A stretch of DNA of 64,000 nt from an uncultured delta proteobacterium (GTDB lineage: Bacteria; Myxococcota; Myxococcia; SLRQ01). The stretch spans positions 198,854-262,853 of the forward strand of contig CAVSGM010000002.1 in NCBI GenBank assembly GCA_963727485.1. Reading direction: 5' to 3'. Shown piece by piece: positions 4,168 through 51,582 of the stretch (position 1 is its first letter; every line of letters starts with the position of its first letter). Both the position numbers and the translations under genes were made by a program. The notes beneath the pieces are model-generated. The model worked only from the letters and a program-made list of their open reading frames with translations. It had not been told where the DNA came from and searched no databases.

Positions 4168-4269
4168 GTAGACGCGGGTCGAGAAGACCCGAGCTGTAGA
4201 TGAGGGCGGCGGACCTTGATGGTCCCGCCGCCCTCGTCGTATGTATCGCCCGCGGATCGGAAATCCACC

Positions 4270-7555
<3,286 letters not shown>

Positions 7556-7559
<4 letters not shown>

Positions 7560-10965: not shown

Positions 10966-12281
<1,316 letters not shown>

Positions 12282-20326: not shown

Positions 20327-21898
20327 ATGATCGATTTCGCACGGTTCGAAGACCTCCACATCGTCCGGAAGATTCGCGAGAAGATCCGGGGGTGGTGGAA
20401 CATCGAGCTCTCGTATGCCGACGAGAGCGGGTACGTCCTCGACCACGCCCAGGGGAAGATCGTTCCGCCCCACAACGACCTCTGCCAGGGATCCCTGGGG
20501 CACCGCGAGGGCTTCCAGCGGTGCAACACCTCGGTGGAGCGGGCCATCGCCCAGATCCGCGGCGAGACCGAGATCCGGGCCCGGGTGGTCCAGACCTGCC
20601 ACCTGGCCTTCCCCCTGGTCCTGGTGCCGGTGGTCGATGACCTGGGGGTGTTCCACGGCGCCATCTTCGCCGGGGGCTTCCTCATCGACGACGAGGTCGA
20701 CGACCGGCGCCGGCGCATCCTCGACGAGACCGCCCGCCAGGGGCTCCCGGTGGCCGATCCCGACCAGGCCTTCGCCGGGATCCCGGTGATCCGGCGCCGC
20801 GACATGGACTACTTCTGCGACCTCCTCGAGACCACCGTCGAGGAGATCGTCGAGTTCAACAAGGCCCTGCGCGAGCGCGAGACCCGCATCGAGGCCCTCA
20901 CCGGCGAGCTCGAGGGGCGCTACCGGTTCGGCAACATCGTGGGCAAGTCCCCGGCGATGCGCCGGCTCTTCTCGCTGCTGGAGAAGGTGGTGCAGTCGGA
21001 CAGCACCATCCTGGTCACCGGGGCGAACGGCACCGGCAAGGAGCTCATCGCCCGGGCGCTCCACTACAACGGGCCGCGGGCCCGGGGCCCCTTCGTGGTC
21101 CAGAACTGCTCGGCGCTCAACGACAACCTCCTGGAGAGCGAGCTCTTCGGCCACGTGAAGGGCGCGTTCACCGGCGCCACCCGGGACAAGCAGGGCCTGT
21201 TCAAGGTGGCCGACGGGGGCACCTTCTTCCTCGACGAGGTCGGGGACATGTCCATGGCCATGCAGGTCAAGCTCCTCCGGGTCCTCCAGGAGGGCACCTT
21301 CATCCCCGTGGGCGGGACCGGCGCGGTGAAGGTCGACGTCCGCATCATCACCGCCACCAACCGCGACCTGAAGCAGATGGTCGAGCGCCGGGAGTTCCGC
21401 GAGGACCTCTACTACCGCCTCAACGTCATCAACGTGGAGGTGCCCCCCCTCCGGGACCGCAAGGAGGACCTGCCGCTCCTGGTGGCCCACTTCCTGGAGC
21501 AGCACGTCGACGGCCGGGGGCCCAAGCGCCTGGCCTCCGAGATCATGGCCCGGTTCTACGCCTACGACTGGCCCGGGAACGTCCGGGAGCTGGAGAACGA
21601 GATTGAGCGGCTGGTGGTCCTCTCCGGCGAGGGCGAGCTCATCGACGAGGGGGTCCTCGACGTGGCCACGCGCCCCTACCCGGAGGCGGCGAACCCGGCG
21701 CGCCTCGCCGGGAAGGGAGACCTCGCCAGCGCGGTTGCGGCCCTGGAGCGCGAGATGATCCGCGAGGGGCTGGTCGCCACCCACTGGAACAAGACGCGAC
21801 TGGCCGAGCGCCTCGGGGTCTCGCGCACTACGCTCATCAAGAAGATCAAGGAGTACGGCCTCGAGGAGCGGGGGAACCCGCTGGCCGAGGGGCACTGA
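20327..21898 (+). CDS. Sigma-54-dependent transcriptional activator with a non-receiver N-terminal Cys/His-containing sensory domain
   Basis: MIDFARFEDL...; AAA+ core GKSPAM...TGANGTGKEL...GAFTGA...GTFFLDEVGDM...ESELFGH...; C-terminal HTH; N-terminal about 190 aa has no receiver Asp motif. Confidence 0.85.
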   Translation: MIDFARFEDLHIVRKIREKIRGWWNIELSYADESGYVLDHAQGKIVPPHNDLCQGSLGHREGFQRCNTSVERAIAQIRGETEIRARVVQTCHLAFPLVLVPVVDDLGVFHGAIFAGGFLIDDEVDDRRRRILDETARQGLPVADPDQAFAGIPVIRRRDMDYFCDLLETTVEEIVEFNKALRERETRIEALTGELEGRYRFGNIVGKSPAMRRLFSLLEKVVQSDSTILVTGANGTGKELIARALHYNGPRARGPFVVQNCSALNDNLLESELFGHVKGAFTGATRDKQGLFKVADGGTFFLDEVGDMSMAMQVKLLRVLQEGTFIPVGGTGAVKVDVRIITATNRDLKQMVERREFREDLYYRLNVINVEVPPLRDRKEDLPLLVAHFLEQHVDGRGPKRLASEIMARFYAYDWPGNVRELENEIERLVVLSGEGELIDEGVLDVATRPYPEAANPARLAGKGDLASAVAALEREMIREGLVATHWNKTRLAERLGVSRTTLIKKIKEYGLEERGNPLAEGH

Positions 21899-37219: not shown

Positions 37220-37967
37220 ATGCGGCCCACAGTGCCGGGCCGCGAAGCATCAGGGGGGGGCGTCGGGTCCCCCACGGGGGGTGGAAACGTCGTGCCGCCG
37301 CGGTGGCGCGGGGCCTGGCCACGGCCCTGGCGTGCCTGTCCCTCGGCGCCTGCGCCACGCCCACCTCGGGCCTCGCCGCCCCCGGCGCCGACACCGCCGG
37401 GAGCGTGACGCCCCCGGGGCGCGCCTTCCCCACCGAGGTCACCTTTCCCGACGGCTACGGCCGCGCCTGGGACGCCACGGTGGCGGTCCTCGCCTCCCGG
37501 GGCTTCCCCCTGCGCTCGGTGGCCCGGGCGTCGGGGATCGTCCAGACCGGGTGGCGGGTCACCGCCGGGCGCTACGAGACCCGGGTCGGCGGGGTCCTCT
37601 ACTACGGCCGGAAGGTCGAGCGGCTCACGGTCCTGGTCCGGCCCCTCTCCCACGGGACCGCGGTCTCGGTGCAGGCCCAGGCGGCCCTGGTGAGCCCCGA
37701 GTGGAGCGCCGCCGGCACCCCGGCGCCGGGGCAGGCCGCCGACGTCCCCGACGACACCATCACCGACTACGGGATCCTCCATGACCTGGGGCGGGTGCTC
37801 CGCCGGCCCCTGGCCCGGGCGCCCGACGCCGGCTACCCGGGGCCCCTGGCCGGCGGCGGGGTGTTCACGGCGCCGGTGAGGGCCGCGGCGCCGGTGAAGG
37901 CCGCGCCGCCGCCCCAGGCCCCCACCTCGCCGCCGCCCCCGCCGCCCGCCACCGCCGGAGGGACCCC

Positions 37968-37971
<4 letters not shown>
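37220..37971 (+). CDS. Lipoprotein (hypothetical), probable frame change in a poly-G run near 37250-37290
   Basis: Met in ORF 37193 frame (MRPTVPG...) followed by lipoprotein signal ...KRRAAAVARGLATALACLSLGAC and mature domain in ORF 37081..37971 frame; start uncertain. Confidence 0.45.
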
Positions 37972-39569
<1,598 letters not shown>

Positions 39570-39572
39570 GCG

Positions 39573-39845
39573 ATGGGTATGAAGGACAAGGCCACCAACC
39601 TCGGGATGAAGGTCATGAACGACATCATGACCGACCCCGAGAAGGCCCAGAAGCTGGCGAAGGCCATGGGGGCCTACCAGAAGGGGCGTGACTCGGTGCG
39701 CGAGAGCCAGGAGAAGCTCCTGCACTCGGTGGGGCTGCCCACCACCGGTGACGTCGAGGGCCTCACCAAGCGGATCTCGAAGGTCCGCCGACGCATCAAG
39801 GACGTGTCCAAGCGTCTGGGAAAGGTGCAGGGACGACTGGCTTGA
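39573..39845 (+). CDS. Small coiled-coil protein, possibly phasin-like (hypothetical)
   Basis: MGMKDKATNLGMKVMNDIMTDPEKAQKLAKAMGAYQKGRDSVRESQEKLLHSVGLPTTGDVEGLTKRISKVRRRIKDVSKRL; 4 nt downstream of the Hsp70 gene; functional call is weak. Confidence 0.4.
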   Translation: MGMKDKATNLGMKVMNDIMTDPEKAQKLAKAMGAYQKGRDSVRESQEKLLHSVGLPTTGDVEGLTKRISKVRRRIKDVSKRLGKVQGRLA

Positions 39846-40029: not shown

Positions 40030-41568
40030 ATGGCTGCTTCCGAGCGCAGGCCCCGGGCCCTGGTCGTCGACGACGACGACGGGATGCGTGGGAACATGGC
40101 CCACATCCTCGAGGCCGACGGCTTCGAGACGGTGGGCGCGGTCGACGGGATGGACGCCCTGGGGCGGCTCGAGCGCGCCAGCTTCGACATCGCCCTCCTC
40201 GACATCCAGATGCCGGGCATCGACGGCCTGGAGACGCTGAAGCGGATCCGGGAGAAGGCGCCGGAGGTCGAGGTGGTGATGGTCACGGTGCTCAAGGAGA
40301 TCCCCAAGGTCGTCGAGGCGATGAAGCTCGGGGCCTTCGACTTCCTCACCAAGGACTTCCGGGCCAGCGAGCTGCAGCTCAAGGCCCAGCAGGCCCTGAC
40401 CCACAGGCGCACCGCCCGGCAGATGGCCTACCTCCGCGACGAGGTGGAGCGACAGGCCCCCGGCGAGATGATCATGGGCGACGGGCCGGCGATGCGCGAG
40501 GTGTCGACCCTGGTCGACAAGGTGGCGCCGCTCCCCGCCACGGTGCTGGTCCTCGGCGAGAGCGGGACGGGCAAGGAGCTGCTGGCCAGGCGTCTCCACC
40601 GCATCTGGTCCGGGGGCGACAAGAAGAAGCCCTTCGTCACGGTGAACCTGGCGGCGATGCCCGCCAGCCTCATCGAGTCCCAGCTCTTCGGGCACGAGAA
40701 GGGGGCGTTCACCGGGGCCACCGAGCAGCGCCTGGGGAAGTTCGAGCTCGCCGACGGAGGCACGCTCTTCCTCGACGAGATTGGCGAGCTGCGCCTCGAT
40801 CTCCAGGCGAAGCTCCTGCGCGCCATCCAGGAGCGCGAGGTGGAGCGCCTCGGGGGCAAGCGTCCGGTGCCGGTGGATGTCCGGCTCATCACCGCCACCA
40901 ACGTCGACCTCAAGGAGGCGGTCCACGCCGGTCGCTTCCGTGAAGACCTCTACTACCGCATCAACGTCATCCCCATCCGGCTGCCGCCCCTGCGCGAGCG
41001 CATCGAGGACGTGCCGGTGCTGGCGCGGCACTTCGCCCGGAAGGCGGGGCAGCGGTTCAACCGGCCAGTGCCCGAGCTCACCGACACGGCGCTCGAGGTG
41101 CTGATGCGCTACCCCTGGCCCGGGAACGTCCGGGAGCTGGAGAACCGCATCGCCGGGCTGGTGGCGGTGCAGGACCGGCCGGTCATCGACGACGTGGACC
41201 TGCCCATCGAGTTCAGCTACCCGCGCTTCTACGACGAGGCCCGGCGCAAGAAGGCGGACGGGCTGGCGGTGGCGCTCACGGCCTTCGAGCGGTCGTTCAT
41301 CGCCATGACCCTGGAGAAGACGGGGTGGCACCGGAAGCAGGCGGCGGCGGAGCTGGGCATCGGCTACTCGACGCTGAAGAAGAAGCTCAAGAAGCTGGGT
41401 GCTCGCGCCGCCCGGGGGGCGCCACGCCGACGGGGACCCGGACGGCGACGACGACGAGGGGTGAGCCCTCACCGGCGCCGGAGGGACGTGGCGCGCGTGG
41501 CCGGCGTCGTCAGGCGGCGTCGGGGGACGACTCGGCCACCGGGGGACTGGCGCGCCGGGGCAGGGTGA
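40030..41568 (+). CDS. NtrC-family sigma-54-dependent response regulator (receiver, AAA+, HTH) with Arg-rich C-terminal extension
   Basis: MAASERRPRALVVDDDDG...DIALLDIQMPGIDG (receiver) ...GESGTGKELLA...GAFTGA...ELADGGTLFLDEIGEL...AAELGIGYSTLKKKLKKLG (HTH); the last about 55 aa are low-complexity and overlap the convergent kinase gene, so the true stop may be earlier. Confidence 0.85.
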   Translation: MAASERRPRALVVDDDDGMRGNMAHILEADGFETVGAVDGMDALGRLERASFDIALLDIQMPGIDGLETLKRIREKAPEVEVVMVTVLKEIPKVVEAMKLGAFDFLTKDFRASELQLKAQQALTHRRTARQMAYLRDEVERQAPGEMIMGDGPAMREVSTLVDKVAPLPATVLVLGESGTGKELLARRLHRIWSGGDKKKPFVTVNLAAMPASLIESQLFGHEKGAFTGATEQRLGKFELADGGTLFLDEIGELRLDLQAKLLRAIQEREVERLGGKRPVPVDVRLITATNVDLKEAVHAGRFREDLYYRINVIPIRLPPLRERIEDVPVLARHFARKAGQRFNRPVPELTDTALEVLMRYPWPGNVRELENRIAGLVAVQDRPVIDDVDLPIEFSYPRFYDEARRKKADGLAVALTAFERSFIAMTLEKTGWHRKQAAAELGIGYSTLKKKLKKLGARAARGAPRRRGPGRRRRRGVSPHRRRRDVARVAGVVRRRRGTTRPPGDWRAGAG

Positions 41569-43288
41569 CCACGAAGACGGCGCCGCCGCTGGGGCGGTTC
41601 CCGGCGGAGACGGTGCCCCCCTGCTCCTCGACGATGCGACGGACCACGGCGAGGCCGAGGCCGAGGCCGTTGCCCGAGCCCTTGGTGGTGCGGAAGGCGT
41701 CGAAGAGGTCGTGGAGGAGCGCCGGGGGGATGCCCGGGCCGTCGTCCTCGACCACCACGGTGACCCGGCTCGCCTCGAGGCCGACGCGGAGGGTGACGTG
41801 TCCCCCGTGGTCGCGGAGGGCGTCGAGGGCGTTCTCCACGAGGTTGCGCACGGCGCGCTCGAGGGCCAGGGCGTCGACCTCGACCATGGGGTCCCCGTCG
41901 CCCTCGACGACCAGGGCGAGGGAGATGCCGCGGGTGCGGGCGGTGGCGGTGAGGCTGCCCTCGAGGCGACGGAGGAGGTCGGGGAGGAGCACCGGCGCGG
42001 CCTCGGCCTCCCGGGGGTTGGCGAACTCCGAGAGGTCGGCGAAGAGCCGGTCGATGTAGGCCTGCTCCCGGTCGAGGTTCGCCTCGAGGTCTTGGCGGGT
42101 GGCCTCGGTCTCGGGGATGTCGAGGAAGGTCCGGACGTGGGTGATGAGGTGCTGGAACGGGCGCTTGAGATCGTGGGCCAGCCCGCCGGCGATGCGGCCG
42201 AAGAACGCCAGGCGCTCCTGGCGGCGAATCTCCTGGGTGAGGGTGCCGAGGTCCTCGGCCATGTGGTTGAAGCCCCGGGCCAGGTCGCCGAGCTCGTCGG
42301 GGCGGTCGTGGTGGACGCGGACGGTGAAGTCGCCCTCGCCGATGCGCCGGGCGCCGGCGGCGAGGCGCTCCACGGGGTTGACGATGGTCCGGGCGCCGAT
42401 GAAGGTCACGGTGCCCACGGCGAGGAGCGCCGCGAAGAGCACGATGAGCAGGCCGAGGCCGAGCGCCCGCGCCTGGGCGAAGGCGTCCCGCGCAGGTGTC
42501 TCCACCACGGCGACCCAGTCGGTGCCCGGGACGGAGGCGGCGGCGCCGACCACCTGCAGCCCGTCGCGGCGGTCATAGGTCGCCGACACGGCGCCGCCGT
42601 CCTTCTCCACCTCGTTCACGATCTTCGGGGTGGGGTAGGGGCGGCGCTGGATGGCGTAGACGAGCTCCTTGGCGATGCCGTGGGCGAAGAGGTGCCCGTG
42701 GCGGTCGACGAGGTAGGTGTAGCCGGTGCGACCGAGGCGCAGGTCGCGGACCATGGACCACAGCTCCAGGGTGTCGACCTCGGCGGCGAGCGCCCCCACG
42801 GTCCGCCCGAGGCGGTGGACCGGCACGGCCACGGCCATCACCGGCAGCAGGTCGTCGCCGATGACCACCTGGGTCACCTGGGGCTTGCCGGTGGCCAGGG
42901 TCTTGTCCGCGGCGCCGCGCACCAGCTTGGAGGGCCCCTTGTCCGGCAGCAAGGTGCTGAAGGTCCGTTTGCCCCCGTGGTCGAAGTCGACCAGGTAGCG
43001 CAGGGTGCGGTCCTCGAGGAGCGCCCGCGCCAGCACCCGGTCGGTCTCGGTGGCGTCGAGCCCGTTGCCCGGGCTCACCGCCGCCCCCACCGCCCGCACC
43101 ACGTCCACGCGCCCGCGGACGAAGGCCCCGACCCGCTTGGCCACCTCCGACGCCGCCGCCCGGGTCCCGGCGGTCACGCCCTCCTGCGCCCCGCGGATTC
43201 CGGACCAGGTGGCGTAGACCCCGTAGGCGCCGAGGGGAAAGAGCGTGGTGAGCGCCAGGAAGAGCAGGAGCTTGGCGCGCAGGCGCAT
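41510..43288 (-). CDS. Sensor histidine kinase (two TM segments, periplasmic sensor domain, HAMP, HisKA, HATPase)
   Basis: MRLRAKLLLFLALTTLFPLGAYGVY (TM1), about 270-aa extracytoplasmic region, LGLGLLIVLFAALLAVGTVTFIGA (TM2), ...FFGRIAGGLAHDLKRPFQ (H-box)...ENALDA...GNGLGLGLAVVRRIVE... Confidence 0.85.
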   Translation of the reverse strand: MRLRAKLLLFLALTTLFPLGAYGVYATWSGIRGAQEGVTAGTRAAASEVAKRVGAFVRGRVDVVRAVGAAVSPGNGLDATETDRVLARALLEDRTLRYLVDFDHGGKRTFSTLLPDKGPSKLVRGAADKTLATGKPQVTQVVIGDDLLPVMAVAVPVHRLGRTVGALAAEVDTLELWSMVRDLRLGRTGYTYLVDRHGHLFAHGIAKELVYAIQRRPYPTPKIVNEVEKDGGAVSATYDRRDGLQVVGAAASVPGTDWVAVVETPARDAFAQARALGLGLLIVLFAALLAVGTVTFIGARTIVNPVERLAAGARRIGEGDFTVRVHHDRPDELGDLARGFNHMAEDLGTLTQEIRRQERLAFFGRIAGGLAHDLKRPFQHLITHVRTFLDIPETEATRQDLEANLDREQAYIDRLFADLSEFANPREAEAAPVLLPDLLRRLEGSLTATARTRGISLALVVEGDGDPMVEVDALALERAVRNLVENALDALRDHGGHVTLRVGLEASRVTVVVEDDGPGIPPALLHDLFDAFRTTKGSGNGLGLGLAVVRRIVEEQGGTVSAGNRPSGGAVFVVTLPRRASPPVAESSPDAA

Positions 43289-44616
43289 CTAGTGGGCCTT
43301 GGCCGGGCGGATGGAGAGGGCCAGCGAGTAGGGCTCGGTCGAGTCGGGCTTGGGATGGACGAAGCGGAAGCGCTTGGAGGTGACGGCGACGCGGGGGAGC
43401 ACGCCCAGCGGCACGAAGGGCGGGTTCTCCGCGAGGCGCTTGCGGATGTCCTTCCAGGTCGCGCCCTTGGCGAGCATGGCGTCGAGGACCGGGTCGTGGT
43501 GGTGGCCGACGTTCAGGCGGGCGCTCGATGGCGACATACAACGTTGGGGCCCGAGCGGGTGGCGCAAGTTGATGAAGCTAGGCGGAGGTCGAGCTTCCAT
43601 GGGCTGGCCAAGTCGCTGCTTGGGCCACATGCTGTCACATGAGCCTGGACTCCTGCATCCGCTAGGCTCACGAAGAGGTCTTCGGTCGCCATGCGCGATC
43701 TCCTCGAGGTTGACGATCTCGAGGTCTAGCGGCTTGGTGATGGTCTTCAGCATCCTCTTGCACCCAGCGCGGAGGGGCGTGTCAGAACCGACTTGCCGAT
43801 GGACCCGTGCGGGCGTCGGGGCCAGCCCATAGGCGACCTGCCAACGCCCGGAAGGCAGGAGTGATGGCTCTGGCAATGCACCGCCGGACCGCCGTGACTT
43901 TGGAGTAGGGGCTCATCTTCGTTGAAGACGAGCACAGCCTCGGTGTTCCTCTGCAGTACGGAGTCACCAGTCCTACCCGAGGCAGCGAGCAGGCGATCGT
44001 GCTGTAGGGGGAGCCCGCCGGCCACGTCGGCGTCGCCGGCTAGCAGGTGGGCGAAGACGGCCACGCGGCCCCGAGACGTGTCGGACGACCATCAGCCGAG
44101 GGTCGTGCATGGGCTGCACGGCGCGCGAGACAGATCCGGCTGGGCGCTCTGGGAGCGACCCGGTACGGGCCTGCGCCAATCCACGCCCCGTCCCGACCTC
44201 TTCGGGCAACGGGTGCCCACGGGACCGCGTGCATGTCCGGTGTCGGCAGGTGCAGGATACAGCCTGCCGTTGCGCTGCCAGTGCCAGCTCTCGCTCTGGG
44301 ACCCCAGATGCAGCTCACGGCGGATCGCGCTGACGAGGTCGCGCGGCCGGATCGGGGAGCCGTCCTGGAAGTACCAGGTCGGCTTGAGGTTCGACCGCAC
44401 AAGGATTCTCGCTGGGGCAGTGCAGGGCAGCCGGATAAGACGTGATCCGAGTGGAGGCGCAATTAGGTCGAGCAGGGTGGCCGAGTCGCCGTTGTGGGGC
44501 ATGCCGGGAACGAGCGGCTCGAGAGGGCGGGGTGAGACCCACACGAGCGGTCGCTCCTGGCGCTGGCGGGCGTGGCCTGACACAGGCCGACAGGAGAAGC
44601 CCAAGCGCAAGCGCAA
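43289..44616 (-). other. Gene remnant/degraded region: intact-looking C-terminal about 80 codons (43289-43540) followed upstream by about 1.1 kb of lower-GC sequence with stops in all frames
   Basis: Reverse strand ...HHHDPVLDAMLAKGATWKDIRKRLAENPPFVPLGVLPRVAVTSKRFRFVHPKPDSTEPYSLALSIRPAKAH* is protein-like with high-GC codon use; upstream only short discontinuous ORFs (e.g. ...TWYFQDGSPIRPRDLVSAIRRELHLGSQSESWHWQRNG...); local GC about 58-62%. Confidence 0.35.
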
Positions 44617-44735
44617 GCGGTACAGTCCTTCGGTGCCTCACCGAGACAGCCTAGTCGTAGTCGCGCAGTCCGACGGAAGACAAAGGCCCCCGTCGCTGAC
44701 GAGGGCCTCTCGAATCTCAGAACGGTGACCGCGGG

Positions 44736-44804
44736 TTAGAAGCCGGCGAGGGCGTCGCAGGGGATGCGCTTCCGATTCCGCTTGTTGAGGGGCTTCTTGA
44801 CCAT
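44736..44804 (-). CDS. 22-codon cationic small ORF (MVKKPLNKRNRKRIPCDALAGF) immediately downstream of the radical SAM gene; candidate peptide
   Basis: ATG preceded by AAGGAAGG at about 7 nt; 69 nt to TAA; single Cys; about 120 nt after the radical SAM stop on the same strand. No homology could be checked. Confidence 0.3.
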   Translation of the reverse strand: MVKKPLNKRNRKRIPCDALAGF

Positions 44805-44925
44805 GGCGAACCTTCCTTTCGGGAAGTGGGGGGACTTCGTTGGGGGGGACTTCAGGGGGCAGAGGTCGGGCTTGCAGGTCCCCACACGTGGGGAGCCTCC
44901 CGGCCCCGGCGTCGGACAAAGGCGG

Positions 44926-46254
44926 CTAGGCCGCCACTTCCTCCGAGGGCATCCGGCCCTCGTAGAACTCGTCGAGGTAGCGCCGCTTCAGGGTCTCGCG
45001 GCCCACCGTGTCGAAGTAGTCGTGCTCACAGCTCACGCCGAGGGTGCCGTTGCGGCGGTAGGTCGTCGCCCGGCAACCGCCGGCGCACACGGGCAGGTAC
45101 TCGCACTGGCCGCAGTCCTTCACCGGGTCGAGGCTCTCGAGGAGCTCGACGCGGGGCAGCCAGCGGTCGTCGGTGATCCGGCCGACGGCCATCTTCGGAT
45201 CGCCCACCAGGACGTCGCACTTGTAGAGGTAGCCGCCGGCGTCGACGAGCAGGTACTGGTCCATGTGGAGGCCACAGGGGCCGAGGCCGAACTCGGGCTC
45301 GGGGCTGAGGCCCGAGCTCACCGCCTTCATCTGGAGGTGGACCAGGCCGTCGGGGTCGGCGTCGGAGATGCGGGTGGCGCAGTCGCCGTCGCCGCGTCCG
45401 TCGAGGACCGGCTTGAACTTCAGCTCGCTGATGGCGTCGGCGAGCCCCTCGCGGCGCAGCACGTCGGCGAGCTCGCCGTACGCGTGCTCGAGGCCCGCGG
45501 GCACGTTGCTGCCGATGTGGATGCGCACCCGCCCGGCGACCGCCTTGAGGTTCGCGAGGATCTGGTCCCAGGAGCCCGTCCCGTCCTTGCGAACCCGGCT
45601 CTGGTCGTGGTGGTGCTTGGGCCCGTCGAGGGTGACCTTGACCGACTCGAGCCCCAAGGGCGCCATGGCGTCGACGAAGGGCCGGTCGAGGAGGGCGCCG
45701 TTGGTGATGATCCGGCAGCTGAAGGCGCGACCGTCCTCGGCGAGCTCGCGCTGGAAACGCTCGGCGGTGCGGAGGATGAGGGGCTTCTTGAGGAGCGGCT
45801 CGCCGCCGAAGTAGGTGAGCTCCAGGGTGTGGAGGTCGTAGCGGGCCATCCGGCGCCGGACCCAGCCGTGGAGCGCCTGCTCCACCGTCTTGCCCATCCC
45901 CGGCCCGCTGGGGCCACCCTCGGCCTCGTAGCAGTAGGGGCACCCGAAGTTGCAGTTCTCGGTGACCAGCACCCGCAGGCGCAGCACTCCGTCGCCCTGC
46001 TTCATCCCCAGCATGAAGTCGCGGAGGGCGGCGTCGTCGGCGACCTCGTCCTCGACGAGGAAGCCCTCGGCCGAAAGGTAGTCGACCTCCTCCTGCTCGA
46101 GGGCGCTCGCCGGCGGCCCGCCCGACAGGGACCCGACCCAGCCGAGGGCCCGGTCGTCGAGGCCGACCAGGTTGTCGGTCAGGGTGTTGTAGAGGACGTG
46201 CTCCCCGGGGAGTGGGAAGTCTCGGATGAGGACGTGGAACCGGGTGAGCTGCAT
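44926..46254 (-). CDS. Radical SAM/SPASM-domain protein (peptide-maturase-like), 442 aa
   Basis: MQLTRFHVLIRDFPLPGEHVLYNTLTD... about 95-aa N-terminal domain, then VTENCNFGCPYCYE (CxxxCxxC), GGEPLL; C-terminal auxiliary-cluster motifs C-x18-C and CGQCEYLPVCAGGC (Cx2Cx5Cx3C) plus terminal VSC; GGGAG RBS. Confidence 0.85.
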   Translation of the reverse strand: MQLTRFHVLIRDFPLPGEHVLYNTLTDNLVGLDDRALGWVGSLSGGPPASALEQEEVDYLSAEGFLVEDEVADDAALRDFMLGMKQGDGVLRLRVLVTENCNFGCPYCYEAEGGPSGPGMGKTVEQALHGWVRRRMARYDLHTLELTYFGGEPLLKKPLILRTAERFQRELAEDGRAFSCRIITNGALLDRPFVDAMAPLGLESVKVTLDGPKHHHDQSRVRKDGTGSWDQILANLKAVAGRVRIHIGSNVPAGLEHAYGELADVLRREGLADAISELKFKPVLDGRGDGDCATRISDADPDGLVHLQMKAVSSGLSPEPEFGLGPCGLHMDQYLLVDAGGYLYKCDVLVGDPKMAVGRITDDRWLPRVELLESLDPVKDCGQCEYLPVCAGGCRATTYRRNGTLGVSCEHDYFDTVGRETLKRRYLDEFYEGRMPSEEVAA

Positions 46255-46299
46255 GGGGTGTCTCCCTGAATCGCCCCCCGAGAGAGCAGGGAGCGTGCC

Positions 46300-46660
46300 A
46301 CCCGCCAGGGGGCTCCAAATCGAGCCCTCCCGACTCGGCTCAGCGGTCCAAGCTGGAAATCTCAATTGATTTCAACCACCTGTCACCAAGGCTCAAAATA
46401 GAGCCCCACGTGGCTACCCTCGCCCGAAGCGACACAAGCCACCGGAATCACTGTGAATCGCCTGGACCAGGCCCCGAATGGGGCTTATCCCGACCCCAGG
46501 GGACTCTTCCAAAAAACACCTGTGATCACAAGGCGTTGGAAAGAGGGTGGCGACCCCGCCGGGGCACGTCGCCCAGCTTCGGGAAAGGGCTCCATTTGGA
46601 GCCCTTTCGTCCCGGGGCGGGGCCAGATCACGGGGAAATACCAATAAAAACCGTGATTTG
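46300..46660. promoter_or_regulatory. AT-richer intergenic control region with multiple palindromes between the radical SAM gene and the divergent small-protein/kinase operon
   Basis: GGGCTC-caaatc-GAGCCC (about 46310-46327), GGCTC-aaaata-GAGCC (about 46390-46405), GAAAGGGCTCCA-tt-TGGAGCCCTTTC (about 46583-46608), TGTGATCACA (about 46521-46530), TCAATTGA, ATCACGG-N18-CCGTGAT; codon usage in short ORFs here is atypical. Confidence 0.3.
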
Positions 46661-46990: not shown

Positions 46991-47865
46991 TGCAACCCCT
47001 CGCCTCCCAGCCGACGCCCTCGCGTCCCTACCGCGCCGATCCCATGCCCCGCGACCCCGAGCTTCACGCCGCCCGCCTCGTCGAGCTGGGCAGCCTGGTA
47101 CCGGGGCTGGTGCACGAGCTCTCGAACCCGGCCGCGGTCCTCCGGGGCAACCTCGGCGCCGTCGTCGACCACGCCGACACCCTGGGCCGACTGGTCAACG
47201 GCCTCGACCAGGGGCAGGACGCCTCGGCCCTGCGCCGGGACCTCGAGCTCGATGACACCGCCATCGACCTCGCCGAGCTGGTGGGCGAGTCCGCCGGCGC
47301 CCTCGACGAGCTGGTCTCCCTCCTCGGCGACATCCGTCACTACGCCGCCGGCGCCGAGGCCGAGGCCGAGGCCGATCTCGCCTCGGCCGTCGCCGCCGCC
47401 CTGCGCCTCGCCACCTACGAGACCAAGTACCGGGCCGCCGTGAGCGTCGGCGTCGGCGACCTCCCTCGGATCGCCCTGTGCCCCGTCCACCTGGTGCAGC
47501 TGGTGCTGGCCCTCATCCTCAACGCCGCCCAGGCCCTCGCCGACCACCGGCAGCTCCACGGCGACCTGGGCCACGTGTCCCTCTCGGCCAGGGCCGAGGG
47601 CGACGACCTCGTCGTCCTCGAGGTCCGCGACGACGGCCCCGGCGTGTCCCCCGACCTCGCCGACCGCGTCTTCGAGCCCGGGGTCACCTCGCGGCCCGGG
47701 GCCAGGGGCATGGGCCTGTACCACGCCCGGAACCTCCTCGAGCGCGCCGGTGGCGCCCTCGTCCTCCAACCGCCCCGTGGCGGGGGCGCCGTCTTCGTCG
47801 CGCGCCTGCCCGCCCTCTCCGACGACATTCACAGTGAGGCCATCGGTCCTGTCCACAAGACATAG
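46990..47865 (+). CDS. Soluble histidine kinase core (HisKA plus HATPase, no TM or recognisable sensor domain)
   Basis: ...ARLVELGSLVPGLVHELSNPAAVLRGNLG (H-box near N-terminus)...ILNAAQAL...LEVRDDGPGVSPDLADRVFEPGVTSRPGARGMGLYHARNLLERAGGAL. Confidence 0.75.
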   Translation: MQPLASQPTPSRPYRADPMPRDPELHAARLVELGSLVPGLVHELSNPAAVLRGNLGAVVDHADTLGRLVNGLDQGQDASALRRDLELDDTAIDLAELVGESAGALDELVSLLGDIRHYAAGAEAEAEADLASAVAAALRLATYETKYRAAVSVGVGDLPRIALCPVHLVQLVLALILNAAQALADHRQLHGDLGHVSLSARAEGDDLVVLEVRDDGPGVSPDLADRVFEPGVTSRPGARGMGLYHARNLLERAGGALVLQPPRGGGAVFVARLPALSDDIHSEAIGPVHKT

Positions 47866-47989
47866 GGTCTTGTGACCATGCCCCCCCGCAGAGGTCGATG
47901 GCCGGGAACCCCGCCGTGAATACGGCGGGGTTCTCTTTTTCCGTCCCCCGCGCCCGTCGGACGAGGGGAGCGCAAGGCGCGGCCTGCGC

Positions 47990-48379
47990 CTACGCCTCGG
48001 GCGTCTCGGTCTCCCGCTTGCGCAGCATGTACTTCACCTTGCGCATCAGCCCGTCGAGGTCGAAGGGTTTCTCGATGAAGTCCTCGGCCCCGAGCTCCAG
48101 GCCGAGCTGGCGGCTGAAGGGGTCGCCCCGGGCCGAGAGGAAGAGGACCGGGATCGCCCGGGTCTGGTCGTCGGCCTTCAGCGCCCGGCACACGTCCCGG
48201 CCGTCCATCCGCGGCATGTTCACGTCGAGGACCACCAGGTCGGGTTGGTCGCTCTGGGCGAGGGCGAGGCCCTCGACGCCATCGGCCGCGGTGATCACCG
48301 TGAAGCCGTGGCGCTCGGCGGTGCGACGGAAGATCGTGCGCAGCTCGGCGTCGTCGTCGACGAAGAGGAGGCGAGCCAT
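47990..48379 (-). CDS. Single-domain (CheY-like) response regulator
   Basis: MARLLFVDDDAELRTIFRRTAERHGFTVITAADGVEGLALAQSDQPDLVVLDVNMPRMDGRDVCRALK...IPVLFLSARGD...; 129 aa; convergent with the kinase core. Confidence 0.8.
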   Translation of the reverse strand: MARLLFVDDDAELRTIFRRTAERHGFTVITAADGVEGLALAQSDQPDLVVLDVNMPRMDGRDVCRALKADDQTRAIPVLFLSARGDPFSRQLGLELGAEDFIEKPFDLDGLMRKVKYMLRKRETETPEA

Positions 48380-48451
48380 GGCGGGCATTATAGGGATCGA
48401 TCGCGTCCGCGTCTCTCCATCGGTCGCGCTCCGGTGATACGCTCCCGGGCC

Positions 48452-49693
48452 ATGCACCGCCACCTCGCCTGGCTCTGCGCCGCCACCGTCGTCTTCGCCG
48501 CCTGCAGCAAGGGGAACAGCGTCGTCCCCACGCCGGCCCTCAAGGCCCAGGCCGCCTACCACCAGGGCAACGCCAAGCTCGTCGCCGGCGACTTCAAGGC
48601 GGCGCTGGTGCTCCTGCGCCGATCGGTGCGCCTCGATCCGGGGCTGGTCCAGGCGCACCAGGCCCTGGGCGAGACCTACCTCGGCCTGCTCCGGGGCCCG
48701 GAGGCCGAGGAGCAGTTCCGCCTCGCTCTCAAGATCCAGCCCAAGAAGTACCTGGCGTGGGAGGGCCTCGGCGACGCGCTCCGCCTCGAGCACCAGCTCG
48801 ACAAGGCCCTCGACGCCTACGCCCACGCCGCCACCCTCGACCAGACCCTCCCCGATCCCTGGACCTCCCAGGGCGAGGTGCTCCGGGACCAGGACGCCTA
48901 CGCCGACGCCGCCGCCGCCTTCGAGAAGGCCGCGGCCCGCGCCTCGGGAAAGGACGTCGCCACCCAGTGGACCAGCGCCGGCGGGGCCTGGGGCAAGGCC
49001 GGCAAGTGGGACCGCGCCGCCGCCAATCTGGCCAAGGCCGCCGCCGCGACCCCCAAGGCCGCCAGCGCCTGGGACCGCCTCGGTCAGGCCCGGGCCCACG
49101 CCGGGGACATGAAGGGCGTGGCCACCGCCTACGCCCGGGCCGTCGCCGTCTCGCCCGAGGACCCGGTCCTCTGGGAGCTCCTCGGCGCCGCCCGCCGGGC
49201 CCTCGGTGACGCCGCCGGGGCCCGCAAGGCCTACGAGCGGGCTCGAGACCTGGCGCCGCACCGCGCCTCGGTCTGGGAGGGGCTCGGGCGCCTCGACCTC
49301 GACGCCAAGGACCTCCCCGCCGCCACCCGGGACGCCCACCGCGCCCTCGACGCCCTGGGGAGCACTGGCCCGTCCCAGGGCAAGAAGGGCGCCGCCGTCG
49401 CCGCCGAGGTCGAGGACGACAACGTGGTCGCCAACGTCGCCAATCTCCTCGCCAAGGTCGGCGACCACGACCGCGCCGCGGGCCTCTACCGGATGCTCCT
49501 CGGAGGCAAGGGCGACCACGATCCCCAGCTCTGGATCGCCCTGGCCCACGAGGACACCGCCCTCGGCGACAAGGCGGCCGTGGCCCTCGACTGCGCGACC
49601 GCCCGGAAGGACGCCGGAACGCAGGCGCTCACCGGCCTCGAGGTCTGCCCCAAGGCGCCCAAGCCGTCGCCGGGCAAGTCCCCGGGCAAGTAG
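48452..49693 (+). CDS. TPR-repeat lipoprotein
   Basis: MHRHLAWLCAATVVFAACSKGN (lipobox), then TPR-like units ...YHQGNAKLVAGDFKAALVLLRRSVRLDPGLVQAHQALGETYLGL... Confidence 0.75.
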   Translation: MHRHLAWLCAATVVFAACSKGNSVVPTPALKAQAAYHQGNAKLVAGDFKAALVLLRRSVRLDPGLVQAHQALGETYLGLLRGPEAEEQFRLALKIQPKKYLAWEGLGDALRLEHQLDKALDAYAHAATLDQTLPDPWTSQGEVLRDQDAYADAAAAFEKAAARASGKDVATQWTSAGGAWGKAGKWDRAAANLAKAAAATPKAASAWDRLGQARAHAGDMKGVATAYARAVAVSPEDPVLWELLGAARRALGDAAGARKAYERARDLAPHRASVWEGLGRLDLDAKDLPAATRDAHRALDALGSTGPSQGKKGAAVAAEVEDDNVVANVANLLAKVGDHDRAAGLYRMLLGGKGDHDPQLWIALAHEDTALGDKAAVALDCATARKDAGTQALTGLEVCPKAPKPSPGKSPGK

Positions 49694-49702
49694 ACGCCGG
49701 AC

Positions 49703-50389
49703 CTAGTGGACCCGGCGGTAGACGCCGACCACCACGCCCAGGATCTGGGTGTCCCGGAAGTCCTGCTGGTGGACGTAGATGGGCTGCATCGCCGCGTTCG
49801 CCGGCTGGAAGCGGATGCGGTCGCCCTCGGGGAAGTAGCGCTTCACCGTGGCGTCGCCGTCGATCATGGCGACCACGATGTCGCCGGCGTCGGCGGTGAG
49901 CTGCTTCTTCACGAAGATGTAGTCGCCGTCGAGGATGCCGTCGTCGATCATGGACTCACCGCTGACCCGGAGGCCGAAGACCTTCTTGGTGGTCCCCCCG
50001 AGGAAGAAGCTGTCCACGTGCACCGTGTCGGTGACGTTCTCCTCGGCGAGGATCGGGCTCCCGGCGGCGACCCGCCCGAGGACCGGGATCGCGACCAGGT
50101 CGCCCTCGGGGAAGATCGCCGGCACCGCCACGTCGACCGCGGTGGGGTGGGGCGCCTCGCCGAGGGCGCGCAGGGCCGGGGCGGTGAGGGCGAGAGCCCG
50201 GGACTTCTTGTCGCCACGCTCGATGTACCCCTTGCGCTCGAGGGCCTTGAGGTGGTCGTTGACGCCGTTGGTGGACCTGATGCCGAAGGCGGTGCCAATC
50301 TCGCGGATGGTCGGGGGGTAGCCGCTCCCGTTGATGCTCTGGTGGATGAAGCCGAGGATGTCCCGCTGCCGCTGGGTGAGCTCCTGCAT
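49703..50389 (-). CDS. lexA: LexA repressor
   Basis: [58 protein letters not shown]...[24 protein letters not shown]...[17 protein letters not shown] (S24 peptidase Ser/Lys region). Confidence 0.9.
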
Positions 50390-50400
50390 GTCCGCCCTCT

Positions 50401-50433
50401 CCTGAAAACAGGTTCAGGCACAAGATACTGAAC
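50401..50433. promoter_or_regulatory. Candidate LexA operator(s) upstream of lexA (CCTGAACCTGTTTTCAGG on the lexA strand, plus GTTCAG-N10-CTGAAC)
   Basis: CTGAACCTGTTTTCAGG matches the delta-type LexA motif CTRHAMRYBYGTTCAGS at 15/17; within 30 nt of the lexA start codon. Confidence 0.45.
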
Positions 50434-50502
50434 GGGCGCCCAGCGCGTCAAGAAATCCGGCGCCGCCTTCCGCCCCGGACGCCCCTGGGGTACACAGGGC
50501 CC

Positions 50503-51582
50503 ATGCGACCGGCGACCCGCCACCTGGGCCACGGGGTCAGGGCCACTCTCCGCCACCTGCCCCTGGTGGCCCTCCAGGCCTCCGTGGACCTCACCGCGAG
50601 CCTGGCGGCCCTGCTCCCGGCGGTGGTCGCCGCGGTCCTGGTGGTGCGCCACGCCGTCACGCTGGTCTCGGCCCTGCCCCCGACCCGCAACCCCCTGGCC
50701 CTCGCCGCGGCGGAGCTGCTGGGCTACCTCCTCTCGGCGCGCTTCCTGATGCCGGTGGTGGGCCTCGCCGCGGCCGGGGCGCTGCTGGTGGCGATGATGC
50801 GGGTCCTCTATCTCACCGGCGCCCTGGGCCTCCTCGCCGGCGACCTCCGCGCGGGTGGCCGGGCGCCGGCCGGCGGCTTCATGGACGCGGTGGTCGCCCG
50901 GTTCCCGGCGGCCCTCGCCGTGGTCGCCCTCATGGGGGTCGCGGGCCTCGCGGTGGCGGGCCTGGTCGCGGGCCTGGTGGGCGCCGCCGGCGCCGTGTTC
51001 GCCGCCGGGCCCTCGGTGGCGAGCGCCGCGGGCCTCGCCCTCGCCGGGAGCCTGACGGTGGTCCTGCTCGCGATCTTCGAGGCCGTCCGGCACCTCGCCC
51101 TGGTCCGCACCGTGGCCCTCGGCGAGGGCCCGGGTGTGGCCACCTACGAGGCCGGGGCCCTGGTCCTCCGGCGTCCCGGGACCCTCCTCGCCCTGGGGGT
51201 CCTGCTCCTTGGCGTCGAGCTGGCCGTGGCGGTGATCTTCGCCAGCGCCACCGGGATGCAGGGCCTCCTCCCCGCCGCCGCCGCGGCCACCGGATGGGCC
51301 GTCGGCGCCCGGGTCGTAGGCGAGGTCACGGCCACCGTGGCCCTCGCCGTGGTCGGCGTGGTCGCCTGGGGCGCCCTGGTGTCCCTGGCCCTCGATGACG
51401 CCGGGGCGCTCCCGCCGGACCCCGAGCCCGCGCCCCGGTCGACCCCGCCCGCACCCGCGCCGGCGGTCCCGGCGCGGCGGGTGTCCCTCGCCCGGCCCGT
51501 GTCGGAGGTGTGGCCGCCGGCGCCGGCGCCTCAGGCCGACGCCCCGGGCGACGACGCCTCAGACGACGACCCCTCGGCGTAG
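50503..51582 (+). CDS. Polytopic membrane protein (hypothetical), Ala/Leu/Val-rich
   Basis: Multiple hydrophobic segments (LVAGLVGAAGAVFAAG, LTVVLLAIFEAV, VALAVVGVVAWGALVSLAL); low-complexity, so the exact frame/start is uncertain. Confidence 0.45.
   Translation: MRPATRHLGHGVRATLRHLPLVALQASVDLTASLAALLPAVVAAVLVVRHAVTLVSALPPTRNPLALAAAELLGYLLSARFLMPVVGLAAAGALLVAMMRVLYLTGALGLLAGDLRAGGRAPAGGFMDAVVARFPAALAVVALMGVAGLAVAGLVAGLVGAAGAVFAAGPSVASAAGLALAGSLTVVLLAIFEAVRHLALVRTVALGEGPGVATYEAGALVLRRPGTLLALGVLLLGVELAVAVIFASATGMQGLLPAAAAATGWAVGARVVGEVTATVALAVVGVVAWGALVSLALDDAGALPPDPEPAPRSTPPAPAPAVPARRVSLARPVSEVWPPAPAPQADAPGDDASDDDPSA

What the first reader, a model, noticed from the sequence alone, without database searches (positions are those of the whole stretch)
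43289..44735. Composition-atypical, ORF-poor 1.4-kb tract with a truncated gene remnant between the kinase and the radical SAM module
Only the last about 80 codons of a minus-strand gene look intact. Upstream, GC drops to about 60% and all six frames are broken into short ORFs whose fragments still look protein-like. This could be a decayed gene (possibly a former partner of the radical SAM enzyme), an unusually error-dense stretch, or a long non-coding RNA.
Basis: partly seen in the sequence, partly recalled or inferred. Interest (0 to 1): 0.5.

Follow-up and report, generated by a model that had tools for sequence, protein, structure and literature searches.

The report
Binding-protein gene broken by assembly errors
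The "ORF-poor, decayed" 1.4-kb tract is one ordinary gene for a periplasmic solute-binding lipoprotein that partners the neighbouring sensor kinase, and it looks broken most likely because this assembly carries about a dozen spurious single-base insertions in a gene that varies strongly between co-occurring strains.

Summary
Window 43538-44735 has no strongly coding frame (GC 67% vs 72%), and only the last ~75 codons before the kinase look intact.

The tract is not a decayed remnant or an RNA. A frameshift-tolerant alignment rebuilds one continuous ~440-aa protein, from GTG 44641 to the stop at 43289 on the minus strand. It has a lipoprotein signal peptide, no in-frame stop, and 9-11 frameshifts, nearly all +1. 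It belongs to solute-binding protein family 5 (PF00496). The 82-aa "remnant" is its C-terminus.

Intact homologues (395-448 aa) sit directly upstream of dCache-HAMP histidine kinases. In one lineage they also sit downstream of the same 22-aa peptide gene.

Three results point to assembly error rather than decay:
- On the window's own branch there are 8 single-base insertions, no deletions and only 2 substitutions.
- At 5-6 of the 8 insertions the window carries both strain alleles of an adjacent SNP side by side.
- The same window has frameshifts in CarB, RecG, aspartokinase, enoyl-CoA hydratase and a sigma54 regulator.

The gene body is genuinely hypervariable between near-identical strains (dS 1.24 vs 0.04-0.06 in flanks). 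Reads were not available, so a real pseudogene is not excluded. Interest is low.

The parts
43289..44641 (-). Gene for a solute-binding protein family 5 (SBP_bac_5) lipoprotein, ~440 aa once frameshifts are removed. In this assembly it is split over three frames.
   Evidence: Frameshift-aware alignment to the L003 allele gives 63% identity, 11 frameshifts and 0 stops. Alignment to intact homologues P0008/P0009 gives 43-44% identity, 9-11 frameshifts and 0 stops. PF00496 scores 38.0 bits for the L003 allele, 38.8 for P0008 and 49.5 for P0009 (gathering 32.4), and 26.7 bits for the corrected window protein. The family profile hits PDB family-5 binding proteins: AccA at E 2e-9, plus Lmo0135, NikA and AppA.
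44582..44641 (-). Start codon GTG and lipoprotein signal peptide MRHRRTVPLALALGLLLSAC (lipobox LSAC, Cys20).
   Evidence: Translation of ORF 44315-44641. The start aligns with the L003 N-terminus VGQRLRAVLAGLFTLAAC. Homologues in L005 (..GALTAC) and P0011 also carry a signal peptide ending in Cys.
43289..43537 (-). The 'remnant': the annotated 82-aa ORF. Its last ~75 codons (43289-43516) are the in-frame C-terminus of the binding protein (NVGHHHDPVLD...PPFVPLG...VTSKRF).
   Evidence: An exhaustive HMMER search with ORF 43289-43876 aligns it to the C-terminal ends of 395-448-aa proteins: P0008 at E 4e-21, residues 245-401 of 405, and P0009 at E 6e-21, residues 290-392 of 395. See also alignment A1. 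Over 43289-43516 there is 1 difference from L003 and 1 from L002 in 228 nt.
43528..44560 (-). About 13 extra bases and one missing base that break the frame. Extra bases lie at ~44560, ~44398, ~44265-44280, 44126, 44060, 43895, 43829, 43699, 43634, ~43591, 43548-43549 and 43528. One base is missing at ~44439.
   Evidence: Three-way alignment with L002 and L003 and frameshift-aware alignments. Positions 5' of 44134 rest on L003 and the homologues only.
44682..44710 (-). Terminator-like hairpin (13-bp stem, 3-nt loop, then UUUGUCUU) between the peptide gene and the binding-protein gene.
   Evidence: Fold energy is -38 kcal/mol, z -2.4. The stem is kept in L003 with a changed loop. A similar hairpin precedes the homologous gene in L007-L009.
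44736..44804 (-). 22-aa peptide gene MVKKPLNKRNRKRIPCDALAGF with Shine-Dalgarno GGAAGG. It is a likely substrate of the radical SAM enzyme.
   Evidence: Sequence reading. GC3 is 0.91. Its homologue MVRKPKTKATRKALPCDLVSF lies upstream of the intact binding-protein gene in L005.
44926..46254 (-). Radical SAM/SPASM peptide maturase, 442 aa.
   Evidence: PF04055. TIGR04280 geopeptide maturase scores 222 bits, below its cut-off of 400; the SPASM domain TIGR04085 scores 48.9 against a cut-off of 27. The exact protein is on record.
41510..43288 (-). dCache_1-HAMP-HATPase_c sensor histidine kinase. Its ATG abuts the binding-protein stop codon.
   Evidence: Pfam. The same pairing occurs in L004, L005 and L007-L009 with 1-4-nt overlaps.
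40030..41568 (+). Convergent sigma54-dependent response regulator (REC-AAA+-HTH_8). Its C-terminal tail is frameshifted by one extra base at ~41400.
   Evidence: Pfam. Comparison with the L003 protein shows that removing one base restores ...KLGLAPPGGRHADGD...EG*. The same convergent regulator follows the pair in L007.

Best explanation
The tract is a single gene on the minus strand (GTG 44641 to stop 43289). It encodes a ~440-aa lipoprotein of solute-binding protein family 5. The gene lies in a conserved set: radical SAM/SPASM maturase, 22-aa peptide, binding protein, dCache histidine kinase, and a convergent sigma54 response regulator. Its stop codon touches the kinase start codon.

Most likely function (inferred): a periplasmic ligand-binding co-sensor that hands its signal to the dCache kinase. 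The ligand may be the radical-SAM-modified peptide.

In this deposited assembly the gene is interrupted by about 13 spurious inserted bases, roughly 1 per 100 nt. It therefore falls into three frames and looks non-coding.

Most likely cause of the insertions (inferred): consensus or polishing errors in an assembly built from a mixture of strains. The body of this gene differs strongly between otherwise near-identical strains, so reads from different alleles were piled up together, and at SNP positions both alleles' bases were written into the consensus.

The lower GC reflects a lower GC3 (about 0.80) of this fast-evolving allele, plus the loss of frame. It does not reflect foreign or non-coding DNA.

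Shown: the homology, the gene order, the frameshift positions, the strain comparison, and the frameshifts elsewhere in the window. Inferred: that the insertions are artefacts, and what the protein does.
For: (1) One continuous protein is reconstructed with 0 in-frame stops against three independent references. It aligns end to end with intact 395-448-aa homologues.

(2) It belongs to PF00496 and hits PDB family-5 binding proteins. The 82-aa ORF matches the C-termini of those homologues.

(3) The gene order is conserved: binding protein then dCache kinase in L004, L005/L006 and L007-9, peptide then binding protein in L005, and a sigma54 regulator in L007.

(4) I polarised the window-versus-L002 differences over 43517-44134 with L003 as outgroup. 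The window's own branch has 8 single-base insertions, 0 deletions and 2 substitutions. The L002 branch has 28 substitutions and few indels. Natural non-coding divergence at this locus has about 0.1 indel per substitution.

(5) At 5 of the 8 insertions, or 6 with a better local alignment at 43829, the window carries the L002 base and the L003 base of an adjacent SNP side by side. The null mean is 1.6 of 8, with P 0.012 for 5 and 0.001 for 6. L003 shows the same kind of doublet in its peptide gene.

(6) Frameshifts, mostly +1, also split housekeeping genes in this window: CarB, RecG, enoyl-CoA hydratase, aspartokinase (twice), a lipase-like gene and the sigma54 regulator tail.

(7) The body has evolved as a coding gene. 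Window versus L003 gives dN/dS 0.33 with dS 1.24, against dS 0.057 for the kinase and 0.035 for the radical SAM gene.
Against: - No reads could be inspected, so the artefact is inferred from pattern only.
- The error density in the tract (~1 per 100 nt) is about 100 times that of the rest of the window (at least 7 per ~62 kb). This needs a local cause. Strain mixture is plausible but unproven.
- All three assemblies of this clade have at least one frameshift in this gene: 1-2 in L003 and 1 in L002. That could mean the gene is truly decaying in the clade.
- GC3 of the window and L002 alleles (0.80-0.82) is below that of L003 (0.85), of the homologues (0.88-0.91) and of neighbouring genes (0.97). 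This is compatible with relaxed selection.
- Window versus L002 gives dN/dS 0.56.
- The corrected window protein scores 26.7 bits on PF00496, below the gathering score.
- Frameshift positions 5' of 44134 rest on distant references only.
Confidence: 0.78

Rival explanations
1. Real, recent pseudogene. The binding-protein gene has truly been inactivated in this strain by many frameshifts, and only its 3' end is kept, for example because it carries signals needed to express the kinase.
For: - Disruptions are confined to this gene, while the flanking kinase and radical SAM genes have no indel relative to L003.
- L003 and L002 also carry 1-2 frameshifts in the same gene.
- GC3 is reduced to 0.80, and dN/dS against L002 is 0.56.
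- The last 228 nt are almost invariant between strains while the rest diverges.
Against: - A branch with 8 single-base insertions, 0 deletions and 2 substitutions is not what neutral decay gives. Substitutions should outnumber indels about tenfold, as in the intergenic DNA of this locus.
- There is no nonsense codon in ~440 reconstructed codons.
- The inserted bases reproduce the other allele's base at adjacent SNPs.
- Essential genes (CarB, RecG, aspartokinase) carry frameshifts, mostly +1, in the same window.
Confidence: 0.17
2. Remnant of foreign or mobile DNA (insertion sequence, prophage or island fragment) lodged between the kinase and the radical SAM module. This would explain the atypical composition.
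For: GC is lower than the surroundings. Divergence between near-identical strains is extreme: 34% in the tract against 0-3% in the flanks. A tRNA-Val lies 3.5 kb away.
Against: - The tract is fully accounted for by one gene that is syntenic with the kinase in four independent lineages.
- No repeats bound it.
- No transposase, integrase or phage domain is found in any frame.
- The allele exchange that does seem to occur replaces one version of the same gene by another.
Confidence: 0.02
3. A long non-coding or regulatory RNA, or a leader, for the kinase operon.
For: No strongly coding frame in the deposited sequence.
Against: There is no Rfam match at E <= 1 in 42500-45500 and none at gathering score in the window. 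The sequence aligns as protein, codon by codon, with homologues at dN/dS 0.33.
Confidence: 0.01

Closest known systems
Solute-binding protein family 5 / cluster C periplasmic binding proteins (OppA, DppA, NikA, AccA; Pfam PF00496)
   Same: Significant matches to PF00496 and to solved AccA, Lmo0135, NikA and AppA chains. The matches are co-linear from the N-terminal lobe to the C-terminal ...PxxPL...avskr... segment. The protein has a secretion signal with a lipobox.
   Different: It is shorter (395-448 aa against ~500-560). No ABC permease or ATPase genes lie next to it in any locus seen. It is always followed by a dCache histidine kinase. The subfamily is rare: an exhaustive search of 1.84 billion cluster representatives with the 195-aa ORF 43289-43876 (the C-terminal third of the gene) found four relatives besides the window's own ORF.
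Binding proteins that act as co-sensors of sensor kinases and are encoded next to them (LuxP-LuxQ, TorT-TorS, ChvE-VirA, the AgtS/AruS-linked proteins; reviewed in PMC8050422, studied in PMC11113362)
   Same: The binding-protein gene lies immediately upstream of, and is translationally coupled to, a sensor kinase with an extracytoplasmic sensor domain. No transporter is nearby.
   Different: No interaction or ligand has been tested. The partner kinase has its own dCache ligand-binding domain. A radical SAM/peptide pair lies upstream in two lineages. I do not know of this for the named examples (own knowledge).
Local error-dense stretches in long-read or hybrid metagenome assemblies where co-occurring strains differ (collapsed strain variation)
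   Same: Single-base insertions are clustered where strains differ. Both alleles' bases are written side by side. Sporadic frameshifts occur in essential genes elsewhere in the same contig.
   Different: The sequencing platform, coverage and polishing history of the source are unknown to me. The mechanism is inferred, not observed.
Geopeptide-type radical SAM/SPASM RiPP clusters (NCBIfam TIGR04280)
   Same: The neighbouring enzyme's best match is TIGR04280 over its full length, with a SPASM domain. A short Cys-containing peptide gene follows it.
   Different: The score of 222 bits is far below the family cut-off of 400. The peptide matches no NCBIfam or Pfam model. The word 'geopeptide' occurs in no paper of the library.

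Membership tests
Solute-binding protein family 5 (PF00496, SBP_bac_5) | Sequence match to the family model above the curated threshold | tested here: met
   The L003 allele scores 38.0 bits, P0008 38.8 and P0009 49.5, against a gathering score of 32.4. The hand-corrected window protein reaches only 26.7 bits, E 3.9e-6. No single uncorrected frame of the window matches.
Solute-binding protein family 5 (PF00496, SBP_bac_5) | Homology to solved family-5 binding proteins over both lobes | tested here: met
   Profile A1 against the PDB gives AccA 4zec/4ra1 at E 2e-9. Lmo0135 (5isu) aligns over profile positions 74-385 and chain residues 76-445. NikA and AppA also match. The fold itself was not predicted.
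Solute-binding protein family 5 (PF00496, SBP_bac_5) | Export signal (signal peptide or lipobox) | tested here: met
   MRHRRTVPLALALGLLLSAC in the window..LFTLAAC in L003..GALTAC in L005. This was read by eye; no predictor was run.
Solute-binding protein family 5 (PF00496, SBP_bac_5) | Encoded with ABC transporter permease and ATPase genes (typical of transport binding proteins) | tested here: not met
   No such gene is called in the 5-10 kb shown around the gene in L003, L004 or L007. A histidine kinase follows instead.
Kinase-associated binding-protein co-sensor | Conserved adjacency or translational coupling with a sensor kinase | tested here: met
   Junctions are TAGATG in the window, a 4-nt overlap in L004, and 1-nt overlaps in L005 and L007. 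All partners are dCache_1-HAMP-HATPase_c kinases.
Kinase-associated binding-protein co-sensor | Physical interaction with the kinase sensor domain and ligand-dependent signalling | not testable with these tools
   This needs binding and phosphorylation assays.
Assembly artefact (indel errors) | The same kind of error occurs in genes that cannot plausibly be pseudogenes in the same assembly | tested here: met
   CPSase_L_D2 of CarB, the DEAD domain of RecG, ECH_1, and the ACT region of aspartokinase are each split over two frames. The sigma54 regulator tail is shifted by +1 relative to L003.
Assembly artefact (indel errors) | Disruptions are assembly-specific and have an error-like spectrum | tested here: met
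   The window's own branch has 8 single-base insertions, 0 deletions and 2 substitutions. At 5-6 of the 8 sites the window shows both-allele doublets, P 0.012-0.001.
Assembly artefact (indel errors) | Reads do not support the inserted bases | not testable with these tools
   No read data were available. An independent contig, L002 (run ERR11594398), lacks all 8 insertions.
Pseudogene (evolutionary decay) | Neutral pattern of change: substitutions far outnumber indels, deletions at least as common as insertions, nonsense codons present, dN/dS near 1 | tested here: not met
   The insertion-only branch. No stop codon in the reconstructed frame. dN/dS is 0.33 against L003 and 0.56 against L002.
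Known RNA family | Match to an Rfam covariance model | tested here: not met
   No match at E <= 1 in 42500-45500. Only tRNA-Val at gathering score in the whole window.
Geopeptide radical SAM maturase (TIGR04280), neighbouring gene | Score above the curated cut-off | tested here: not met
   222 bits against a cut-off of 400. It is the best of 65 radical SAM/SPASM models.

The most novel reading that the evidence does not exclude
The binding protein may be the receptor of a peptide-signalling circuit. The radical SAM/SPASM enzyme would modify the 22-aa peptide (conserved ..PCD..F end). The exported product would be bound by the family-5 lipoprotein, which would then activate the dCache kinase and the sigma54 regulator. 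The receptor body would exist as deeply diverged, recombining alleles within one species (dS 1.24 against 0.04-0.06 in flanks, dN/dS 0.33), suggesting diversifying selection on the receptor. That would be a RiPP-based, binding-protein-mediated signalling module with receptor polymorphism. I know of no described example.
Probability: 0.2. Interest if true: 0.6.

Novelty: not a real feature. Interest (0 to 1): 0.2.

Why it matters
It matters mainly as a caution. A gene that differs strongly between co-occurring strains can be turned into an apparent pseudogene or "non-coding island" by consensus errors. In this case it left an 82-aa ORF on record and no gene call for the longest ORFs in the rest of the tract. 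The same contig has frameshifts in CarB, RecG and aspartokinase, so pseudogene counts from this assembly would be inflated.

The biology underneath is modest but usable:
- a rare subfamily of family-5 binding proteins that is always paired with a dCache kinase, and sometimes with a radical SAM/peptide pair;
- unusually deep allelic divergence confined to the binding-protein body.

Tried and rejected
- Pfam on the individual ORFs and on all six full-frame translations of the tract: nothing.
- NCBIfam on two of the tract's ORFs, the 82-aa ORF, the 49-aa peptide ORF and several neighbours: nothing for the tract ORFs.
- Rfam at a permissive threshold: nothing.
- Word-indexed protein searches, one with a three-frame concatenate and one with the reconstructed L003 protein. 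Each took 8000 candidates and returned no hit, not even the window's own ORF, so I treat these negatives as uninformative.
- Scan of species-representative genomes with the radical SAM protein: only a distant Fibrobacter relative.
- Metagenome scan with the family alignment: only the contig already held.
- Exact look-up of the radical SAM protein returned nothing, first with the wrong start codon and then with the ATG 46254 start. later showed that the 442-aa protein from ATG 46254 is on record.
- Diversity-generating retroelement idea: rejected. The differences are spread over more than 600 nt and are not adenine-specific.
- In-situ neutral decay as the cause of the 34% divergence from L003: rejected. 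dS is 20-35 times that of the flanks, dN/dS is 0.33, and there are no stop codons.
- Mobile-element idea: no bounding repeats.
- Promoter/terminator consensus scan: found nothing, although folding shows a strong hairpin after the peptide gene.
- Paralogue in the window as a source of mis-mapped reads: none found.
- Literature search for 'geopeptide': no occurrence.

Full report
**1. Checking the observation**

The window is 72.3% GC, and real genes have third-position GC of 0.97 (kinase and radical SAM gene).

- A frame plot shows GC3 of 0.97-1.0 from the kinase up to about 43520. After that no frame exceeds ~0.88 until 44740.
- In a scan of the whole window, 43540-44881 is the longest stretch without a frame of GC3 >= 0.88.
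- The tract is 67.2% GC.
- All six frames are interrupted. None of the ORFs or full-frame translations hits Pfam.
- There is no Rfam match.
- The 3' piece is real: ORF 43289-43537 (82 aa) ends in TAG immediately followed by the kinase ATG.
- This exact 82-aa protein is on record from a 1,887,778-bp NCBI/ENA contig. So are the 49-aa ORF that contains the peptide gene, the radical SAM protein and the kinase. The window is therefore as deposited.

**2. Related sequences**

The kinase look-up returned a 3-kb contig assembled from run ERR11594398 (L002). It is 98.2% identical to window 41116-44134.

Cluster look-up revealed a second genome, ENA ERZ25039500 contig_8292. Its syntenic locus is L003.

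L002 differs from the window at 55 positions. Of these, 52 lie in 43516-44134 and only 3 in the 2.4 kb of kinase plus small ORF.

L003 compared with the window:

| Region | Divergence from window |
|---|---|
| Several kb at 47450-51200 | ~0% |
| Radical SAM gene | 1.1% |
| Kinase | 2.9% |
| 43289-43516 | 0.4% |
| Tract | 34% |

**3. What the tract encodes**

In L002 the homologous 600 nt read as one open frame. In L003 one frame is open across the whole tract, and the N-terminus has a lipobox.

The conceptual L003 protein hits PF00496 (SBP_bac_5) at 38 bits, above the gathering score of 32.4.

A frameshift-aware alignment of that protein to the window DNA gives a continuous path from GTG 44641 to the stop at 43289. 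It has 63% identity, no in-frame stop and 11 frameshifts, nine of them +1.

An exhaustive HMMER search with window ORF 43289-43876 found four relatives among 1.84 billion representatives. The small ORF aligns to the C-terminal ends of P0008 (405 aa), P0009 (395 aa) and P0011 (448 aa). P0008 and P0009 pass the PF00496 threshold; P0011 matches below it at 25.1 bits.

These independent homologues also align end to end with the window DNA: 43-44% identity for P0008/P0009, 9-11 frameshifts at the same places, and no stops. The five proteins align co-linearly with shared motifs: two Cys, VGTGPYR, FNE, RRC, NxGxHxDxxLD, PPFVPLG and VTSxRF. The family profile hits solved family-5 binding proteins: AccA at E 2e-9, plus Lmo0135, NikA and AppA.

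The window N-terminus MRHRRTVPLALALGLLLSAC is a lipoprotein signal.

The whole interval between the terminator hairpin at 44682-44710 and the kinase is therefore one gene. The "remnant" is its last 75 codons.

**4. Context**

Intact homologues are always followed by a dCache_1-HAMP-HATPase_c kinase, with a 1-4-nt overlap (L004, L005/6, L007-9).

In L007 a convergent sigma54 REC-AAA-HTH_8 regulator follows, as in the window.

In L005 the gene is preceded by a peptide gene, MVRKPKTKATRKALPCDLVSF. This is homologous to the window's MVKKPLNKRNRKRIPCDALAGF. In the window, the peptide gene follows a radical SAM/SPASM maturase whose best but sub-threshold match is the geopeptide maturase model.

No ABC transporter genes are adjacent in any locus. 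Binding proteins encoded next to sensor kinases are known to act as co-sensors (PMC8050422, PMC11113362). That role is the most likely one here, by inference only.

**5. Are the frameshifts real?**

(a) *Polarity of the changes.* I used L003 as outgroup over 43517-44134. The window-specific changes are 8 single-base insertions, no deletion and 2 substitutions. L002-specific changes are 28 substitutions, biased from GC to AT, plus a few indels. Between the window and L003, unconstrained DNA at this locus shows about one indel event per ten substitutions. An insertion-only branch is therefore not what mutation and drift produce.

(b) *Both-allele doublets.* At 44126, 44060, 43895, 43699 and 43528 the window has two adjacent bases where L002 has one of them and L003 the other. 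With a better local alignment this also holds at 43829. Random placement gives 1.6 such cases of 8, so P is 0.012 for 5 and 0.001 for 6. This is what a consensus built from two alleles would write. L003 shows the same kind of doublet in its peptide gene: AAGAAG[C]ATC against AAGCGCATC.

(c) *Frameshifts elsewhere in the window.* Single-base frameshifts also split housekeeping genes in this window:
- CarB at ~4805, with CPSase_L_D2 divided between ORFs 4216-4929 and 4200-7559.
- RecG at ~9480, with the DEAD domain divided.
- Enoyl-CoA hydratase at ~17024, with an extra T inside the ..GGD-LKDL.. motif.
- A lipase-like gene at ~18735.
- Aspartokinase at ~30512 and ~30565, two +1 shifts.
- The sigma54 regulator tail at 41400, +1 relative to L003.

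These rest. Most are +1, as in the tract.

(d) *No stops.* The reconstructed frame has no stop codon.

What remains against this:
- The error density is about 100-fold higher in the tract than elsewhere.
- L003 and L002 each have 1-2 frameshifts in the same gene.
- GC3 of the window allele is only 0.80.
- Reads could not be examined.

I put the artefact reading at 0.78 and a real pseudogene at 0.17.

**6. Why here?**

The body of this gene is genuinely hypervariable.

| Comparison | dS | dN | dN/dS |
|---|---|---|---|
| Binding-protein body, window vs L003 | 1.24 | 0.40 | 0.33 |
| Kinase, window vs L003 | 0.057 | 0.019 | 0.33 |
| Radical SAM gene, window vs L003 | 0.035 | 0.004 | 0.12 |
| Binding-protein body, window vs L002 | 0.107 | 0.060 | 0.56 |

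These are old, functional alleles exchanged by recombination between near-identical genomes. The break points lie at the conserved 3' 228 nt and near the terminator.

A mixed population carrying such alleles is the situation in which long-read consensus and polishing go wrong. It also explains why the L002 contig ends inside the gene. The lower GC comes from the allele's lower GC3, not from foreign or non-coding DNA.

**7. Comparison with known systems, and verdict**

The gene is a member of solute-binding protein family 5. It is short and is linked to a kinase rather than a transporter. The arrangement resembles known binding-protein/kinase co-sensor pairs. The radical SAM/peptide pair upstream is an untested lead.

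The flagged "decayed, ORF-poor tract" is best filed as an assembly artefact laid over an ordinary gene.

Interest is low (0.2). The most novel reading not excluded is a radical-SAM-peptide, binding-protein, kinase signalling circuit with polymorphic receptor alleles (probability ~0.2).

Noticed in passing
window 44736-44804 (-); L005 11-76: A 22-aa peptide gene (MVKKPLNKRNRKRIPCDALAGF) with a strong Shine-Dalgarno sequence lies just after the radical SAM/SPASM gene and is followed by a hairpin terminator. A homologue (MVRKPKTKATRKALPCDLVSF) lies upstream of the intact binding-protein gene in an unrelated metagenome contig. It matches no Pfam or NCBIfam model. The source record holds a 49-aa version from an upstream GTG.
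   Followed up: partly
window ~4805, ~9480, ~17024, ~18735, ~30512, ~30565, 41400: Single-base frameshifts split CarB, RecG, enoyl-CoA hydratase, a lipase-like gene, aspartokinase (twice) and the tail of the sigma54 response regulator. Pfam domains are divided between two overlapping ORFs. The contig seems to carry residual indel errors, mostly +1, at about 1 per 9 kb or more.
   Followed up: partly
window 46200-46450: The non-coding stretch upstream of the radical SAM gene is a second divergence hot spot relative to L003: ~20% mismatches and many 1-nt indels, against 1% in the gene itself. It may be a promoter/regulatory region that is exchanged or evolves fast, or it may be further consensus trouble.
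   Followed up: no
L003 ~6487 (peptide gene), ~6736 and ~7620-7680 (binding-protein gene): The second genome (ENA ERZ25039500 contig_8292) has an extra base in the 22-aa peptide gene that would destroy the conserved ..IPCD..F end. It also has 1-2 frameshifts in the binding-protein gene. Its gene caller placed a 342-aa antisense ORF over the gene.
   Followed up: partly
window 43289-43516: The last 228 nt of the binding-protein gene show 1 difference from L003, although the adjacent kinase differs by 2.9% and the gene body by 34%. This may be a recombination anchor, or the sequence may be constrained for kinase expression.
   Followed up: no
window 37833-39725 (-): This minus-strand ORF hits PF10712 (NAD-GH) at E 4e-81. 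The GC3 phase indicates that the real gene is on the plus strand (~37968-39569), so the hit is probably to an antisense translation.
   Followed up: no
window 12280-13141: This is the second-longest stretch (~860 nt, 71% GC) without a high-GC3 frame. It has no Rfam match and I did not recognise any ORF in it.
   Followed up: no
window 41116-41145 and 21569-21598: An exact 30-nt direct repeat, where contig L002 ends. The first copy lies inside the sigma54 regulator ORF; the gene around the second copy was not examined.
   Followed up: no
L007, L008, L009 positions 1-40: Three independent assemblies of a distant relative all begin within or just before a GC-rich hairpin ~90 nt upstream of the binding-protein gene. 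Assemblies may tend to break at this point.
   Followed up: no
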